A DNA stretch of 64,000 nt, from the NCBI GenBank assembly GCA_022340425.1, contig JAJDNY010000172.1, forward strand, positions 1,252 through 65,251. The letters run 5' to 3'. This DNA is from Desulfobacteraceae bacterium (GTDB taxonomy: Bacteria > Desulfobacterota > Desulfobacteria > Desulfobacterales > JAABRJ01). How positions within the stretch are numbered: the first letter of the stretch is position 1; each line of letters starts with the position of its first letter. The translations under genes were made by a program, and so were the position numbers. Positions 41,035 to 58,141 of the stretch are shown in pieces. The notes below the pieces were generated by a model. The model was not told where the DNA came from. It was given only the letters and a program-made list of their open reading frames with translations, and ran no database searches.

Positions 41035-41165
41035 AAAAGGGGGTGGACTAGGTTTTGAACATATGTTAATAACCATCCCATGTGTGCCATGACGCAAGGC
41101 GTTGGCATGCGTCTTCCTTGGCCACTGTCGGTCAAGGCAACATACGCAGAAAAAGGAGACCCCAG

Positions 41166-42527
41166 ATGAAACCGAAAGACAAATTGGTCATCATCGGATG
41201 CGGGGGCGTGGGCGGGCCGGCCTCCATGCTCTCCAAGAAACTCATGCCAGAGGTGGAGGTCACCAACATCCGGGATGAGAAATGTTTCATTGTGCGCTGA
41301 GCGCTGCCCCACGTTGTGGCCGGTCTGGTCACGGGCGAATCGATTGTGAATCCGGATGCCAAGCTGGCGGATGCCGGGGTGAAGGTCGTGGTCGACCGCG
41401 TAACCCGGGTGGATCCTCAGGCAAAGAAGGTCTTCGTGGCGGGCGGGGACGAATACGCCTACGACAAGCTGATCCTGAGCACCGGTTCCAGCCCCATCTT
41501 GCCGCCGTTACCCGGCAAGGACCTGGAGGGGGTGTTCATGCTGCGCTCCCTGCAGCATGCCGAGGACATCTGCCAATTCCTGAGCACCCATGCGCCCCGC
41601 AAGTTGACCTTCGTCGGCGCCGGCTTCATCAGCCTGGAGGTGGCGGTCCTGCTCAAACAGGCCAACCCGGATTACGAGATCACCATCGTGGAGCTTCTCC
41701 AGCATCCCCTGGCCACCATGCTGGACGCCGAGCTGTGCCAGCGGGTGGAAAAATATCTGACCGAAAAAGGGTTCCAGCTCCAAATGGGGAAGAAGGTGGT
41801 CGGCATCCAGGGCAACGGCCGGGTGTCGTCCGTCACGCTGGATTCGGGGGAAGAGATCGCCGCCGACATGGTCTTCATGAACGTCGGTGCGGCACCCAAC
41901 CTGGAGCTGGCCAGGGAGATGGGGCTGGAGATCGGCCGCTTCGGGGTCAAGGTCAACGAGTTTTTGGAAACCTCCGACCCCGACATTCTGGCGGCCGGAG
42001 ACTGTGCCGACAACAAGCACTTCGTCACCGGAACCTCCAACCCCGGCGCCCTGCGGGGCCCCGCGGTGATCATGGGCAGGCTGGCGGCCAAACGCCTGGC
42101 GGGCTATGAGATCCCGTTTCCGGGGCTGCTGAATGCGGCGGCCTGCAACCTGATCGATTGGAACGTGGCTGCCACCGGCCTGACAGAAGCCCAAGCCCAG
42201 CACGAGGGGATCGAAACGGTGAGCGCCACGGTGGATTCCCGGAGCAAGCACGGGATGATACCGGGCATGACGCCCTGGACCCTGAAGCTGGTTTTCGACC
42301 GCAACCGGCGGACCCTCATCGGCGGGCAGATCCTGAGCCGGGAAATAGCGCCGGTCAAGGAGATCGACGCCGTCAGTGCGCTGATTCTGGGGCGCAAGAC
42401 GGTCGAAGACATCACCGTTTTCGTCACGGCGGGCAATCCGGACATCTCCTCGGAGCCCAGCCTGGAGCCCCTGACCATCGCCGCGGAGCAGTGCTTGCAG
42501 AAGATGGGCCGCCGGCAGGGCGTCTGA
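41166..42527 (+). CDS. CoA-disulfide reductase/NADH oxidase-family flavoprotein with in-frame UGA (41298..41300), predicted selenocysteine
   Basis: RBS AAAGGAG and ATG at 41166. FAD motif VIIGCGGVGG. The two listed ORFs (41082..41300 and 41316..42527) share one frame and are separated only by TGA. FIVR-[UGA]-ALPHVVAG aligns with the CoADR active site SFANCALPYVIG. Second Rossmann motif FVGAGFISLE. Confidence 0.75.
41314..41334 (+). other. candidate bacterial SECIS hairpin
   Basis: UUGUGGCC-GGUCU-GGUCACGG forms 6 Watson-Crick/GU pairs plus 2 GU pairs. The apical loop begins GGUC as in the E. coli fdhF minimal SECIS (GGUUGCAGGUCUGCACC). The loop starts at +25 from the U of UGA. Confidence 0.55.
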
Positions 42528-42626: not shown

Positions 42627-42687
42627 AAAAAAACGACCGGCAGCCGGAGTTCTTTTCTTGAACTCCGGCTGCCGGCCGTTTTTTTTT
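42627..42687. terminator. bidirectional intrinsic terminator between the convergent flavoprotein and pyrG genes
   Basis: A-run, then CCGGCAGCCGGAGTTC-TTTTCTT-GAACTCCGGCTGCCGG (16-bp perfect stem), then a T9 run. Confidence 0.85.
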
Positions 42688-42713
42688 GGCACCGGCATCC
42701 GTGGCCGACACGA

Positions 42714-44366
<1,653 letters not shown>

Positions 44367-53399: not shown

Positions 53400-54243
53400 C
53401 GTAATCTCCTCACCATTATACTATGTTGGATAACGCTGATTTCCGATTTCACAGCTTGAAATCTGTTTTTTGATTATTCTTTTTTTACTGGCGCTTCATG
53501 TCATTAAACAATTTATCAAGCTATGATGCAACAATAAATTGTCAATCCCTCTGCTGTGCGCGTTCTGGCGCTAACGGCCGATTTGCGGCAGCCACGCAGC
53601 AATCCCGGTTCCGGGAAGGTTCAAATAGAGATCGCGCCCAAACTCTCTGAAATGGGTTTCCCCAGGCGTGCTTTGGATTCCCTGAATCAGGTCAAACGCC
53701 CCACGAGATTTCTTTGAAGGACTCCGGTTAAATGGCTGCCTACCCGGCATGGTGGATCCGCCGCCCCCCAAAGACGATCCCCGATAATCGGTTGGCCGTG
53801 GTTGACATGTCGGGATGACGACTTAATCTTCCCGATATTTTAACTTGACATGATGAGCGGCGTTAGGGAACTGGCCCAGGGATCGCCCGGCAACCTCTTC
53901 TTCCTGAAGGTGCCAAATCCAGCCCAAAAAGGGGAACATGTGGTCTTGATGACAAGGGAACCCCCGCGTTTTGCCAAGCGATTTCTCGCGTCACCATTCC
54001 ACCATTGAACACACGTTTTTTAAGACCCGTCGCCTTCGACCCGATCAAAAGCGCTGCATCCATCGAGTGCCGTTTTCCAAGGTTTGAGCTTGGGAACCTC
54101 GCGGCCTGCTGCCTTATGCGATCGGTAACTCTGCTTCCGCTTGGCGGTCGACAACGCCCGACCAAAATGAGCGCTGCAGAGTTTGCAGCCTGCGGTGTTT
54201 TCGATAAAACCCACGGTGGGCAAAGAAATGGGAGGTTTGCCAA

Positions 54244-57009
54244 ATGAAAAAAACCGTATTTCTATATTCGGGTGAAGGAACCCATAGCAGTCAAACCCGT
54301 TTCACGCTTTTGAAACAATCGCCGCGCTGGGCCGAAATTGAAAGTATTCTGCGCGCACAAATGGATCTGGAACTGGAGCCGCTCTGGGAGCGGGAAATCG
54401 GCAGGCATCGATGCCCCTACAGCCCTTTGCTGACCGTGGTGTCCCAGATTTGTCTGGCCGATATCTGGTGCCGCTGGGGTTACCACCCGGATGTGGTCAT
54501 CGGCCACAGCACCGGGGAACTGGCGGCAGCCTACCAGGCCGGTTTCCATACGCTGGAAGAAGTGCTGCTGCTGGCCTATGGGATCGGCGAGGCGGCTGCC
54601 AACCTCGATGGGGTGATGGCCCATGGCCGGGTATCCGAGGCGCGCCTTGGGGACCTGCCGGTGGGTCCTTCCTCGTTCAATTTCAAGGTCGAAAACGGGC
54701 GGCATGTCACCCTCTCCGGCTATGCCGGCGAGATGGAGGAATTTCTCCGGAAATACCCAGATTTTGTGAGAATGAAACTGCCCCACCCCTGGCACCACCC
54801 GGATTACCGACGCTTTGCCGACCGGCTGCCCCGTTTCCCATCGGCTGCGGTGGGGGGACCTGCTTTCTTATCGGGGGTCACCACGCGGTTTGAAACCCGC
54901 CTCGCGGATGACTACTGGCACGAGTGGCTGGTCAAGCCCATCGATTTCATTCGGGCCATGCAGGCCCTCAAGGACAACCACCAGGACGCCCCCATCGATT
55001 TCATCGAAATCGGTTTTCACCCGGTGCTGGAAAAGTGCTGCCAGATTTTCGATGACCATACCTACGTTTCCTCCATGTTCCGCGGCGAGGATGACGCCGG
55101 CTGGATTCTATTTCAGAGGAAAAAACTGGATCAGAATGTTTTTTTGAAAAGCCTCCAAAAGGCCCTCGCCGCATTCAAGCCGGAGCTGGATTTCACTGCG
55201 CCGCTGGCCTACCAGGGGCTGGGCTCCCTGGAATTTGCCGAACTATCCGTGCTATTGCAGCCCTATTTTCCTTCACTTGCCCCCCAGGATTTCTATCGCC
55301 ATAAAACAATCAACCACCTGATCGGCCACTTCGGCCTGAGGAAGGCGGTTGAGCCGGCGGGCAGGGAAACACTGCGCAAAAACCCGGTGGTGATTTCCGG
55401 GATGAGCTGCCGTTTCCCGTCCAGCGTGGAGACCCTGACCCAGTTCTGGGATATGCTGGTCAGCCGGGAAGACCAGGTGCGGCATGTGGCCGCCAGGGGG
55501 GGCGCGGAAGGGGGCTATCTGGCGGATGCCGTCACCCGCTTCGATCATCGCTACTTCAACATCCCTTCGGCCGAAGCGCGCACCCTGGATCCCCAGCAGA
55601 TCCTTGCCCTGGAGTTGACCGAAATGCTCTGGAAGGATGCCGGCATAGATCCCGAAACCCTGGACAAGAACCGGGTCGGTGTCTATCTCGGGGTCTGGAA
55701 CCAGGAGTACGGGGGGGATAGAAGCTCCGTTTTCTACCCAACTGGGGTCAATCCGAGCATTATCGCCGCCAGAATCAGCTACCACTACGATCTGAGGGGG
55801 CCGAGCTGGGTTTCCAACACCGCCTGCGCCTCCTCACTGGTGGCGGTCCACTACGCCCTCAAGGATATCGAGGCCGGCCGGGTGGACTACGCCATCGCCG
55901 GCGGCGTCAACATGCTGCTGAGCGACGCGTTTACCGGCAGCATGCGAAACTCCGGATTCCTCTCCCGGGACAACCGCTGCAAGGCGTTCGACGACGCCGC
56001 CAACGGGTATGTGCGCGCCGAGGGCGGCGGCCTGGTGCTGCTGGTCAACAAAGAGCTGGTCGACGCCTACTACGCCGAAATCCTCGGGTCCGCCATCAAC
56101 CAGAACGGCCGCCGCTCCCAGGTGATCACCGCACCCCATCCCGAAGCCCAGGAGGAGCTGATTTTGGCCGCCTGCCGTGACGCGGGGATAAGCCCCCGGG
56201 AGATCTCCTACGTCGAATGTCACGGGACCGGTACGAAGCTCGGGGACCCCATCGAAATTTCGGCCATCAAAAACACCATCGCCCGGGACAGAAAAGACAC
56301 CTGCTACGTCGGCTCGGTCAAAACCAATATCGGTCATCTGGAATCCGCCGCCGGCATCGCCGGGCTGCTCAAAGCGGTGGCCAGCCTGTACCACGGCATC
56401 ATCCCCCCCAATCTGCATTTTCATCATCCCAACCCATACATCGACTTCGAATCCCATTTGATCCGGGTGGTTTCCGAAGAAACTCCCATCGACCATCGGG
56501 CACTCATCGGTGTCAGCAGTTTCGGCTTTGGCGGCAGCAACGCGCATCTCATCGTCAGGGGGGCGGACGCATCGGTTCGCAAGGAAATCCGTCCCCTGGA
56601 AATCCCCTTTGACCGGGAAAGCGCCGCCCCTCTGAACGATTACCTCCAGCTTCAGACGCCGGACCCCGCGCTGGGCGCCACCGGGGGGGGAAACAAAGGC
56701 GGGGCCGCGGAAAAGGCCCTTAGCCGCGAAGATATCGACGCCCTGGTGCGGGACCTTTTTTCCCAATTGACCAATATCGATGAGATCCACCCGGACATCG
56801 CCCTGACCGATCAGGGCCTGAGCTCCCTGAGCGGCACGGAACTGATCACCATGCTGGAAGCAGCGTTGCACGTCGAGATCGGGCCGGAAATCCTTTTCGA
56901 GTATCCGTTGAAAGATCAGTTTGTCGATCAGCTTTGCACCTTGGCCGCCGGCGCCCCTGACATCAACCCGAAGACTGCTGCAAAGGGTGAAGCCCATGGA
57001 ATCAATTAA
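54244..57009 (+). CDS. type I PKS-like megasynthase, domain order AT - carrier - KS - carrier
   Basis: AT: FLYSGEG and GHSTGE. Carrier 1: LGSLEFAEL. KS: NTACASSL (Cys), ECHGTGT (His), KTNIGHLESAAG (His). Carrier 2: GLSSLSGTEL. No KR, DH, ER or TE motifs seen. Confidence 0.8.
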   Translation: MKKTVFLYSGEGTHSSQTRFTLLKQSPRWAEIESILRAQMDLELEPLWEREIGRHRCPYSPLLTVVSQICLADIWCRWGYHPDVVIGHSTGELAAAYQAGFHTLEEVLLLAYGIGEAAANLDGVMAHGRVSEARLGDLPVGPSSFNFKVENGRHVTLSGYAGEMEEFLRKYPDFVRMKLPHPWHHPDYRRFADRLPRFPSAAVGGPAFLSGVTTRFETRLADDYWHEWLVKPIDFIRAMQALKDNHQDAPIDFIEIGFHPVLEKCCQIFDDHTYVSSMFRGEDDAGWILFQRKKLDQNVFLKSLQKALAAFKPELDFTAPLAYQGLGSLEFAELSVLLQPYFPSLAPQDFYRHKTINHLIGHFGLRKAVEPAGRETLRKNPVVISGMSCRFPSSVETLTQFWDMLVSREDQVRHVAARGGAEGGYLADAVTRFDHRYFNIPSAEARTLDPQQILALELTEMLWKDAGIDPETLDKNRVGVYLGVWNQEYGGDRSSVFYPTGVNPSIIAARISYHYDLRGPSWVSNTACASSLVAVHYALKDIEAGRVDYAIAGGVNMLLSDAFTGSMRNSGFLSRDNRCKAFDDAANGYVRAEGGGLVLLVNKELVDAYYAEILGSAINQNGRRSQVITAPHPEAQEELILAACRDAGISPREISYVECHGTGTKLGDPIEISAIKNTIARDRKDTCYVGSVKTNIGHLESAAGIAGLLKAVASLYHGIIPPNLHFHHPNPYIDFESHLIRVVSEETPIDHRALIGVSSFGFGGSNAHLIVRGADASVRKEIRPLEIPFDRESAAPLNDYLQLQTPDPALGATGGGNKGGAAEKALSREDIDALVRDLFSQLTNIDEIHPDIALTDQGLSSLSGTELITMLEAALHVEIGPEILFEYPLKDQFVDQLCTLAAGAPDINPKTAAKGEAHGIN

Positions 57010-58141
57010 AACAACGCATGTGGGCTCTTTGCCGCGCCCCCAGGAGATGATCGCCAAAATCCTGCGAAAGCAGGCCTTCGCAAAGGAGGATTTGAGACGC
57101 TACGTCAAGAGTGTTGTGGAAAAACAGCTGCAGCTGGGAATATCCTACATCAACAACGGCGAGATGCCCCGGCTGGACTACGTGAACGCCACCGTCACCC
57201 GCATTTCGGGTTTCGGCGGCCAGGCATCGGCGCCCATGCCGCGGGATCTGGAGGAGCTGCCCGAATTGTCCGGCCGCTTCGGTGGCCGCAACGGGTTGAT
57301 CACCCTCAATCCCAAAGCGCCGGTCACGCTGCCGACGTGCTCCGGGCCGTTAACCTATTCCGGCGAGGCCTCCCTGCGGGAGGAGTTGGACATGCTGGCC
57401 GCGGTTTACGCTGAAATCAAGCCGTCCTATCCTGAGGCGCCCGCAGGGCTTTTTTTCACCGCGCCGTCCCCCGGGACCGTGGCGCTTTTTCTGGAAAACA
57501 GCTACTACCCGAATTACGAAGTGTATTTGGAAGCCCTGGGGGCGGTGTTGAAGACAGAGTATGACATCATCCGCAGCTACGGTTTCCACCTCCAGATTGA
57601 CTGCCCGGACCTCGCCATGGGGCGCCACACGCGTTTCAAAGACGTCAGCGAAGCCGAATTCCTGGCAACCGTTGACACGAACGTCCGCGTCTTGAACCAG
57701 GCCCTGGCCGCAGTCGATCCGGCCCTTTGCCGGGTGCACATCTGCTGGGGCAACTATCCCGGGACGCATCACTGCGACATCGACCTAAGGTCTATCTTCA
57801 AGCCCATCACGGCCCTGAACGCCAGGTACATTTCTCTGGAGGCCAGCAATCATCGGCACGCCCACGAGTGGGCCGTGTTCGCCGAATTGCCTTTCCCCGA
57901 AGACAAGGTGCTGATGCCGGGGGTCATCGATACCAGCTCCAACACGGTGGAGCACCCCGATCTGGTGGCCCAACGGATCTCCAATTTCGCGCAAATTCTC
58001 GGCCCGCACCGGGTGGTCGCCTCAACCGATTGCGGCTTTGCCACGACCGCATCCGCAGCCAGCGTTTCCGGCGAAGTGGCCTGGCTGAAACTCGCCTCCC
58101 TGGTGGAGGGGGCCAGGCGCGCAAGCGTGAAACTGTGCTGA
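56996..58141 (+). CDS. cobalamin-independent methionine synthase (MetE C-terminal domain)-like Zn thiol alkyltransferase family protein
   Basis: ATG at 56996 overlaps the PKS 3' end by 14 nt. N-terminus IKTTHVGSLPRP. Candidate Zn ligands H-I-C (VHICWGN), E (ISLEAS) and C (STDCGF). Confidence 0.7.
   Translation: MESIKTTHVGSLPRPQEMIAKILRKQAFAKEDLRRYVKSVVEKQLQLGISYINNGEMPRLDYVNATVTRISGFGGQASAPMPRDLEELPELSGRFGGRNGLITLNPKAPVTLPTCSGPLTYSGEASLREELDMLAAVYAEIKPSYPEAPAGLFFTAPSPGTVALFLENSYYPNYEVYLEALGAVLKTEYDIIRSYGFHLQIDCPDLAMGRHTRFKDVSEAEFLATVDTNVRVLNQALAAVDPALCRVHICWGNYPGTHHCDIDLRSIFKPITALNARYISLEASNHRHAHEWAVFAELPFPEDKVLMPGVIDTSSNTVEHPDLVAQRISNFAQILGPHRVVASTDCGFATTASAASVSGEVAWLKLASLVEGARRASVKLC

What the first reader, a model, noticed from the sequence alone, without database searches (positions are those of the whole stretch)
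41166..42527. In-frame UGA at the catalytic Cys position of a CoADR/NADH-oxidase-family flavoprotein: predicted selenoprotein
ORFs 41082..41300 and 41316..42527 are in the same frame and separated only by TGA 41298..41300. Neither piece is viable alone: the first has only the FAD GxGxxG motif, and the second lacks it. The junction FIVR-[UGA]-ALPHVVAG lines up with S. aureus CoA-disulfide reductase SFAN-C-ALPYVIG, where that Cys is the single redox-active residue (Cys42/43 of the Npx/Nox/CoADR family). Fifteen nt downstream a hairpin UUGUGGCC-GGUCU-GGUCACGG presents a GGUC apical loop like the E. coli fdhF SECIS. It sits one codon further from the UGA than in fdhF. Replacing a sulfenate or mixed-disulfide Cys with Sec is mechanistically plausible. 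I recall Sec-containing NADH-oxidase-like proteins being reported in computational selenoproteome surveys of deltaproteobacteria, so the family may not be new. An automated annotation would nevertheless split or truncate this gene.
Basis: partly seen in the sequence, partly recalled or inferred. Interest (0 to 1): 0.7.

Follow-up and report, generated by a model that had tools for sequence, protein, structure and literature searches.

The report
Selenocysteine flavoprotein gene, known family
The in-frame UGA is a real selenocysteine codon at the catalytic-cysteine position of a CoA-disulfide-reductase/NADH-oxidase-type flavoprotein and has its own insertion hairpin, but this selenoprotein family, and even this clade of it, is already catalogued, so it is a correct call about an ordinary, routinely mis-annotated gene.

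Summary
ATG 41166 to stop 42527 is one 453-codon frame interrupted only by TGA 41298-41300. The read-through product is a full-length Pyr_redox_2 / CoADR-Nox-Npx flavoprotein. The TGA falls exactly on the redox-active Cys column.

All 98 orthologous loci recovered from genomes and metagenomes carry TGA at this codon. The sister clade and distant relatives carry TGC or TGT.

Fifteen nt downstream lies a 6-bp hairpin with loop GGUCU (41316-41332). It is 97.5% paired across 81 sequences, and 4 of its 6 pairs show compensatory changes. Its four codons have the lowest synonymous variation in the whole gene. It meets the published bacterial SECIS consensus and shares GGUCUG with E. coli fdhF, one codon further from the UGA.

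Independent DNA and RNA runs show the TGA and a single transcript across it.

The family is known. [quoted passage not shown] The 2004 prototype from Geobacter metallireducens is 31% identical, with Sec in the same column.

Public gene calls do truncate it to about 400 aa. The substrate is unknown, and Sec machinery could not be checked in this genome.

Verdict: interpretation supported; a new member of a known kind; low interest.

The parts
41154..41158 (+). Shine-Dalgarno AGGAG, 7 nt before the ATG
   Evidence: Read from the sequence. Homologs start at the equivalent Met (MKxGEKLVIIG). RNA contigs begin at 41133 and 41163.
41166..42527 (+). Complete selenoprotein coding sequence: 453 codons including Sec45, then stop TGA 42525-42527 (followed by TAA)
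   Evidence: Pyr_redox_2 (E 1.7e-54), Pyr_redox and Pyr_redox_dim. Best PDB match is P. horikoshii CoADR (E 6e-52) over residues 4-436.
41196..41216 (+). FAD-binding GxGxxG (GCGGVGG, residues 11-17), upstream of the UGA
   Evidence: The motif lies only in the 5' piece.
41298..41300 (+). Sec codon UGA (residue 45) in FIVR-U-ALPHVVAGL
   Evidence: TGA in 98 of 98 orthologous loci. Cys (TGC/TGT) in the sister clade and in 57 distant relatives. No variant at this site in 2 RNA and 2 DNA runs.
41316..41332 (+). SECIS upper stem-loop: stem 41316-41321 / 41327-41332, apical loop GGUCU 41322-41326
   Evidence: 97.5% paired, 4 of 6 pairs compensatory; RNAalifold finds the same helix; synonymous sites frozen; -7.4 kcal/mol alone, -15.1 with context.
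41305..41337 (+). Possible lower stem (41305-41309 with 41333-41337) around the hairpin, in this lineage only
   Evidence: Predicted in the window but only 62.5% paired across the family. It is not a family feature.
41616..41633 (+). Second dinucleotide-binding motif GAGFIS (residues 151-156). Together with Glu176 at the end of the following strand it suggests NADH binding.
   Evidence: Invariant G151, G153, F154 and E176. The Pyr_redox domain covers residues 147-226. Nucleotide preference is an inference.
42637..42685 (.). Bidirectional intrinsic terminator shared with convergent pyrG (42714-44357, minus strand)
   Evidence: 16-20 bp stem, T runs on both strands. An RNA contig ends near 42604.

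Best explanation
This is a single gene for a 453-residue homodimer-type FAD/NAD(P)H flavoprotein of the CoADR/NADH-oxidase/NADH-peroxidase group, in which the one redox-active cysteine next to the flavin is selenocysteine. During translation the hairpin GUGGCC-GGUCU-GGUCAC, whose loop starts 21 nt after the UGA, is bound by SelB-GTP-Sec-tRNA(Sec). That complex delivers Sec to UGA 41298 in competition with release factor 2. In the enzyme, NAD(P)H reduces FAD, and FAD reduces an oxidised Sec45 adduct: a selenenylsulfide with a low-molecular-weight thiol or persulfide, or a selenenic acid. This regenerates the selenolate, which attacks the next substrate molecule. Shown here: gene continuity, the Sec/Cys column, a conserved and covarying SECIS, transcription across the UGA, and orthology to a catalogued selenoprotein. 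Inferred: SelB dependence, the catalytic cycle and the substrate. My best guess is a small disulfide or persulfide (CoADR / sulfur-reductase-like), with peroxide or O2 reduction as second choice.
For: One frame with a single internal TGA. Full-length family match, with the UGA on the active Cys of solved CoADRs. 98 of 98 orthologs carry TGA, with Cys in the sister clade (FIVRCSLPYVVSGL) and in 57 distant relatives. Codons on both sides of the UGA vary synonymously while the residues stay fixed; for example R44 uses AGG, CGC, CGG and AGA. So both pieces are translated in this frame. The hairpin is conserved and covaries. Its four codons are the least synonymously variable in the gene. It meets the published bSECIS rules: loop of 3-9 nt, stem of 4-16 bp, G in the first two loop positions, 16-37 nt from the UGA, and MFE of -7.5 kcal/mol or lower with context. 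It shares GGUCUG with fdhF. Three DNAs of the Cys sister clade lack the hairpin and use other synonymous codons. TGA is present in independent RNA and DNA runs, and RNA contigs span it. TGA is an ordinary stop elsewhere in the window, including in this gene and the upstream gene. The D. widdelii PP31 ortholog is a catalogued selenoprotein in an organism with 38-39 selenoproteins. Some orthologs sit next to a Sec-peroxiredoxin gene.
Against: No selA, selB, selD or tRNA-Sec occurs in the 64-kb window, and the rest of this genome could not be examined. No Rfam model hit the hairpin. The single-sequence fold is not better than shuffled sequence. The 17-nt hairpin alone reaches only -7.4 kcal/mol. 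The protein falls well below the NCBIfam equivalog cut-offs for CoADR and for H2O-forming NADH oxidase, so the substrate is open. No protein-level evidence of selenium exists for any member, as far as the papers read show.
Confidence: 0.92

Rival explanations
1. The TGA is a nonsense mutation, sequencing error or assembly error, and the locus is a pseudogene.
For: An in-frame stop in a single sequence is formally compatible with this. One ortholog (L007) does carry an additional in-frame TAG.
Against: The TGA is at the identical codon in 98 of 98 orthologs from many phyla. There is protein-level conservation with synonymous change on both sides. Four independent runs agree on the TGA. The gene is transcribed.
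Confidence: 0.01
2. There are two products: a 44-residue peptide ending at the TGA, and a 403-residue protein started at GTG 41316. This is how gene callers annotate it.
For: ORF 41316-42527 exists, and about 100 database entries are called this way.
Against: The 403-aa product lacks the FAD GxGxxG and the catalytic residue. GTG 41316 has no ribosome-binding site and lies inside the conserved hairpin. Full-length Cys homologs are colinear across the junction. Truncated calls start at varying residues.
Confidence: 0.02
3. The UGA is read through, but with an amino acid other than Sec. Candidates are Cys mis-charged on tRNA(Sec), or Trp/Cys by near-cognate suppression.
For: Selenium incorporation was not measured. 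Sec machinery was not seen in this window.
Against: A conserved, covarying SelB-type hairpin at the canonical distance has no role in plain suppression. The position is a redox Cys in homologs, the classic Sec/Cys pair. Relatives that carry the gene are documented Sec users. TGA terminates neighbouring genes normally.
Confidence: 0.04

Closest known systems
[quoted passage not shown]
   Same: 61% identity over 449 residues. Identical Sec context FIVR-U-ALPHVVAGL and identical hairpin core GUGGCCGGUCUGG (L046). The paper's sequence equals the L046 translation at 450 of 450 residues.
   Different: Different organism: an uncultured Desulfobacteraceae lineage whose closest MAG relatives are 90-93% identical. 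It has a lineage-specific lower stem and C-terminal tail. Nothing is functionally distinct.
Prototype Sec-containing NADH oxidase/CoADR of Geobacter metallireducens, WP_011365774.1 (Kryukov and Gladyshev 2004, as cited in PMC1794560, PMC9312934, PMC13188914)
   Same: Same superfamily, and Sec is in the same alignment column.
   Different: Only 31% identity. The Sec motif is U-G-I-P-Y (the 'UGxP' of the review), against U-A-L-P-H here. It is a separate clade, so the two Sec forms may have arisen independently; that was not tested.
Cys-type CoA-disulfide reductases, NADH oxidases and NADH peroxidase (PDB 4fx9/5l1n/3kd9, 6pfz, 1yqz, 1joa, 2bc0)
   Same: Same fold and domain order. There is a single redox-active residue on the flavin face, at the aligned position.
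   Different: Sec instead of Cys. Scores are far below the NCBIfam equivalog cut-offs (243 vs 579 bits for TIGR03385; 179 vs 600 for the Streptococcus NADH oxidase model). The clade has its own invariant motifs (DSRSKHxMIPG, AGNPDxSSEPSxEP). By alignment of the N-terminal motif, the residue at the Npx His10 position is Gly (inference).
E. coli fdhF SECIS
   Same: A hairpin inside the coding sequence just after the UGA, with the apical sequence GGUCUG.
   Different: The loop starts 21 nt after the UGA, not 18. The loop is a 5-nt GGUCU closed by C-G, not a 4-nt GGUC. No conserved bulged U is evident. Binding by SelB was not tested.
Mammalian thioredoxin reductase (from general knowledge)
   Same: A pyridine-nucleotide disulfide oxidoreductase that uses Sec.
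   Different: In TrxR, Sec is in a C-terminal GCUG tail that shuttles electrons away from a flavin-proximal CxxxxC. Here Sec itself is the flavin-proximal redox centre.

Membership tests
Bacterial SelB/SECIS-dependent selenoprotein gene | In-frame UGA inside a conserved ORF, conserved as UGA in orthologs | tested here: met
   98 of 98 orthologous loci carry TGA. Both flanks are under protein-level selection.
Bacterial SelB/SECIS-dependent selenoprotein gene | Cys in homologs at the aligned position | tested here: met
   15 sister-clade proteins plus P0047 have C. 57 distant loci have TGC or TGT. The position is the active Cys of solved CoADRs.
Bacterial SelB/SECIS-dependent selenoprotein gene | [quoted passage not shown] | tested here: met
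   6-bp stem, loop GGUCU, 21 nt spacing. MFE is -15.1 kcal/mol for UGA+48 nt, and all 81 sequences are at or below -9.8. The bare 17-mer reaches -7.4.
Bacterial SelB/SECIS-dependent selenoprotein gene | selA, selB, selC (tRNA-Sec) and selD in the same genome | not testable with these tools
   None in the 64-kb window. There is indirect support only: the D. widdelii ortholog-bearing genome has 38-39 selenoproteins, and Sec-Prx genes lie next to orthologs.
Bacterial SelB/SECIS-dependent selenoprotein gene | Selenium found in the protein | not testable with these tools
   Needs 75Se labelling or mass spectrometry.
[quoted passage not shown] | Pyr_redox_2-class flavoprotein with Sec at the Cys42/43-equivalent position, homologous to listed members | tested here: met
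   61% identity to the listed D. widdelii member and 31% to WP_011365774.1, with U aligned in both.
[quoted passage not shown] | Sec motif UGxP as tabulated in the 2026 review | tested here: not met
   The motif here is U-A-L-P (80 of 81 sequences have A, one has S). The tabulated motif describes the Geobacter prototype. The same authors list the UALP form under the same family name, so the motif is not truly defining.
CoA-disulfide reductase proper (TIGR03385 / NF007123 / NF010037 equivalogs) | Score above the curated equivalog cut-off | tested here: not met
   243 vs 578.8, 222 vs 458 and 131 vs 394 bits.
H2O-forming NADH oxidase (NF046103) | Score above the curated equivalog cut-off | tested here: not met
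   179 vs 600 bits.
Pyridine nucleotide-disulfide oxidoreductase, CoADR/Nox/Npx structural group | FAD domain, NAD(P)H domain and dimerisation domain in order, with a single redox residue after the first beta-alpha-beta unit | tested here: met
   Pfam PF07992, PF00070 and PF02852 are all above cut-off. End-to-end alignments to 4fx9/5l1n/3kd9.

The most novel reading that the evidence does not exclude
The UALPH clade is not a CoADR or NADH oxidase at all. It would be a distinct, never-characterised Sec-flavoenzyme of anaerobes, for example the dedicated NAD(P)H-dependent reductase of the Sec-peroxiredoxin encoded next to it in some Desulfobulbia/Desulfobacteria genomes. Its Sec form would have arisen independently of the Geobacter prototype and spread across phyla by transfer together with its nearly invariant SECIS.
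Probability: 0.25. Interest if true: 0.45.

Novelty: new member of a known kind. Interest (0 to 1): 0.2.

Why it matters
There are two practical points. First, this gene is systematically mis-called. Roughly 100 of the 120 closest database entries, including ones from complete genomes, are 400-aa stubs that lack the FAD motif and the catalytic residue. No NCBIfam model passes its cut-off for the clade. A clade-specific model flagged as a selenoprotein would fix hundreds of annotations in Desulfobacterota, Zixibacteria, Fibrobacterota and other phyla. Second, no Sec-containing member of this flavoprotein group has been studied biochemically, according to the papers read, so what Sec buys at a flavin-proximal single-residue redox centre remains an open enzymological question. 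Neither point is a surprise to a selenoprotein specialist.

Tried and rejected
- **Rfam.** Rfam at gathering threshold and at E <= 10 on 41200-41450 gave no SECIS-type hit. This is taken as uninformative, not as evidence against a SECIS.
- **Single-sequence folding.** Folding significance was not better than shuffles, so I relied on comparative evidence instead.
- **Lower stem.** An extended lower stem (41305-41309 with 41333-41337) is only 62.5% paired across the family and was rejected as a family feature.
- **Other selenoprotein genes in the window.** A scan for in-frame TGA flanked by long ORFs was too noisy at 62% GC and gave no credible candidate. Pfam and NCBIfam annotation of about 45 ORFs found housekeeping genes only: parAB, ispH, fusA-like, enolase, pyrG, NAPRTase and others. 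It found no sel genes.
- **Conserved gene neighbours.** None is universal. A CGGC-domain protein appears in 15 loci, a PAS histidine kinase in 16, a NifU-like protein in 9 and Sec-Prx in about 8 of 99.
- **Metagenome scan for the Cys sister clade.** It returned mostly Sec forms and distant Cys forms. Sister-clade DNA came from four direct look-ups instead.
- **Literature gaps.** Kryukov and Gladyshev 2004 is not held. Two papers had no supplements held as text.
- **Structure prediction.** Not run, because end-to-end alignments to solved CoADRs at E of about 1e-52 already fix the fold and the residue position.

Full report
**Observation.**
The sequence is as described. An ATG at 41166, preceded by AGGAG, opens a frame that runs to TGA 42525-42527. 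The only interruption is TGA 41298-41300. The upstream 44 codons carry the FAD-binding GCGGVGG. ORF 41316-42527, which gene callers would pick, lacks that motif.

Translated through the TGA, the 453-residue product matches Pyr_redox_2, Pyr_redox and Pyr_redox_dim. It aligns end to end with solved CoA-disulfide reductases, NADH oxidases and NADH peroxidase. The best match is P. horikoshii CoADR at E 6e-52. The TGA falls on the active-site Cys of that enzyme...haPCGIPYVVEGL aligned with ...fivr[U]ALPHVVAGL.

**Is the TGA real and conserved?**
The 120 closest database proteins fall into two groups. About 100 are roughly 400-aa calls covering 88% of the query and starting just after the TGA position. 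About 17 are full-length 449-aa proteins at 54-59% identity.

The full-length proteins read FIVRCSLPYVVSGL (P0047 reads FIVRCALPYVVAGL), with Cys in the UGA column.

DNA for 80 orthologous loci from species-representative genomes shows TGA at that codon in 80 of 80. A metagenome scan added 18 more, all TGA. The 57 more distant relatives (33-44% identity, CGIPY type) have TGC or TGT.

The carriers include these groups:
- Desulfobacterales, Desulfobulbales and Syntrophobacterales
- Zixibacteria, Fibrobacteraceae and Ignavibacteriaceae
- Dehalococcoidia, Phycisphaeraceae and Eisenbacteria

They also include cultured strains:
- Desulfosarcina widdelii PP31 and D. alkanivorans PL12
- Desulfocicer vacuolatum DSM 3385 and Desulfoprunum benzoelyticum DSM 28570
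- Desulfatitalea alkaliphila

Contigs from two metatranscriptomes and two metagenomes that hold this very sequence span the site with no variant. RNA contigs run from about 41133 to about 42604 as one piece. Codons on both sides of the TGA change synonymously while the residues stay fixed; for example, invariant R44 uses AGG, CGC, CGG and AGA. Both pieces are therefore translated in this frame. Error, pseudogene and split-gene readings are excluded for practical purposes.

**The SECIS.**
Fifteen nt after the UGA lies GUGGCC-GGUCU-GGUCAC (41316-41332). In a single sequence it is not distinguishable from shuffled controls.

Across 81 sequences the helix is paired in 97.5% of cells, against 17-49% when the 3' arm is slid by 1-3 columns. 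Four of its six pairs show compensatory changes, such as G-C to A-U in nine sequences and C-G to A-U in one. RNAalifold recovers the same helix unaided.

The loop is almost invariant: G34 and G35 are invariant, and the next three positions are at least 90% conserved.

The strongest evidence comes from synonymous sites. Among the 149 well-conserved codons of at least four-fold degeneracy in the gene, the four with the lowest normalised codon entropy are the consecutive V51, A52, G53 and L54. Their values are 0.18, 0.05, 0.08 and 0.04, against a median of 0.86. GCC is used in 80 of 81 sequences, GGT in 79 of 81 and CTG in 75 of 76. That is a constraint on the RNA, not on the protein.

Three sister-clade Cys genes use other codons there (TCC/TCG, GGC, CTG/CTC) and have no such hairpin.

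The element satisfies the published bacterial SECIS consensus: loop of 3-9 nt with G in its first two positions, stem of 4-16 bp, 16-37 nt from the UGA, and MFE at or below -7.5 kcal/mol (PMC13188914). Here the values are 5 nt, 6 bp, 21 nt and -15.1 kcal/mol with context, although the bare hairpin reaches only -7.4.

The fdhF SECIS sequence I recalled was verified in 5,419 of 5,426 E. coli genomes. A lower stem predicted in the window is not conserved. Rfam gave no hit.

**Mechanism.**
By homology, NAD(P)H reduces FAD and FAD reduces the oxidised form of residue 45. The second dinucleotide motif is GAGFIS, with invariant Glu176. In Cys enzymes of this group the oxidised form is a Cys-S-S-CoA mixed disulfide or a sulfenic acid. 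Here it would be a selenenylsulfide or a selenenic acid.

The substrate is not settled. The protein is far below the NCBIfam equivalog cut-offs for CoADR and for H2O-forming NADH oxidase. It has clade-specific invariant motifs, DSRSKHxMIPG and AGNPDxSSEPSxEP.

Gene context in the window is uninformative: a NAPRTase-like gene upstream and convergent pyrG downstream, with a shared bidirectional terminator. No neighbour is conserved across the family. In about eight loci the next gene is a peroxiredoxin with its own UGA at the peroxidatic Cys and its own hairpin. Cys homologs sit near thioredoxin, a rhodanese-fused CoADR-like protein, rubrerythrin and desulfoferrodoxin. Together these point loosely to thiol, persulfide or peroxide redox defence.

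**Comparison with what is known.**
"NADH oxidase" has been on prokaryotic selenoproteome lists since Kryukov and Gladyshev 2004. Those lists include:
- Geobacter metallireducens (PMC1794560)
- the Olavius delta-1 symbiont (PMC1976440)
- the GOS data (PMC2398784)

The supplementary sequence list of PMC12013277 contains, under that family name, a protein reading ...CFIVRUALPHVVAGLAAPE.... It is identical at 450 of 450 residues to the translation of locus L046, D. widdelii PP31, and 61% identical to the window protein. The Geobacter prototype is 31% identical, with Sec in the same column. D. widdelii is reported to have 38-39 selenoproteins.

So this is another ortholog in an already catalogued clade of a known selenoprotein family.

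**What remains open.**
- Sec machinery in this particular genome is unchecked. None is in the window.
- Protein-level selenium has not been shown.
- The substrate is unknown.
- It is not known whether the UALPH and UGIPY Sec forms arose once or twice.

A neighbour-joining tree without support values places all 81 Sec forms in one clade, sister to the Cys VSGL clade. One Cys protein (P0047) is nested inside the Sec clade.

**Verdict.**
This is a new member of a known kind. Interest is 0.2.

Noticed in passing
L161:6133-6183 (protein P0047; ENA ERZ21831104, 1.8-Mb contig): A Cys (TGC) homolog nested inside the Sec clade in a neighbour-joining tree still carries the hairpin GTGGCCGGTCTGGCTGC. It looks like a recent Sec-to-Cys replacement with a fossil SECIS.
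   Followed up: partly
L041:4687-5400, L068:4414-5127, L079:5110-5823; also L060, L080-L082, L084: Just downstream of the Sec flavoprotein gene lies a 2-Cys peroxiredoxin gene with an in-frame TGA at the peroxidatic Cys (FYPGDFTFV-U-ATE). It has its own hairpin with a GGUC or AGUU loop. So some Desulfobulbia/Desulfobacteria carry two adjacent selenoprotein genes.
   Followed up: partly
window 53845-53944 (+) and 54244-58141 (+): A SAM riboswitch (Rfam, 53 bits) precedes a 921-aa ORF with acyltransferase, ketosynthase and ACP domains, followed by a MetE-like (Meth_synt_2) ORF. A polyketide-synthase-like gene is an unusual cargo for a SAM riboswitch.
   Followed up: no
L007:1206-1208: The Eisenbacteria MAG ortholog has an extra in-frame TAG eight codons before the Sec TGA. 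This may be an assembly error or a decaying copy.
   Followed up: no
window 41285-41344: In metatranscriptome run X1, two short contigs match only the UGA-hairpin stretch and diverge on both sides. Other organisms' orthologs in the same sample share the nearly invariant SECIS nucleotides.
   Followed up: no
L004, L007, L010, L012, L018, L023 and others (15 loci); L011, L013, L020 and others (9 loci): CGGC-domain proteins (15 loci) and NifU-like proteins (9 loci) recur next to the gene, mostly on the same strand. No neighbour is universal.
   Followed up: partly
window 41166-41300 (residues 7-67): The N-terminal piece alone scores best against Aquifex sulfide:quinone reductase (3hyv, E 7e-4), where AFPH aligns with ALPH and a Pro occupies the Sec column. 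The full-length protein is clearly closer to CoADR.
   Followed up: no
window 42633-42690: A 16-20 bp GC-rich hairpin flanked by T runs on both strands lies between the convergent flavoprotein gene and pyrG. It is a likely bidirectional terminator.
   Followed up: no
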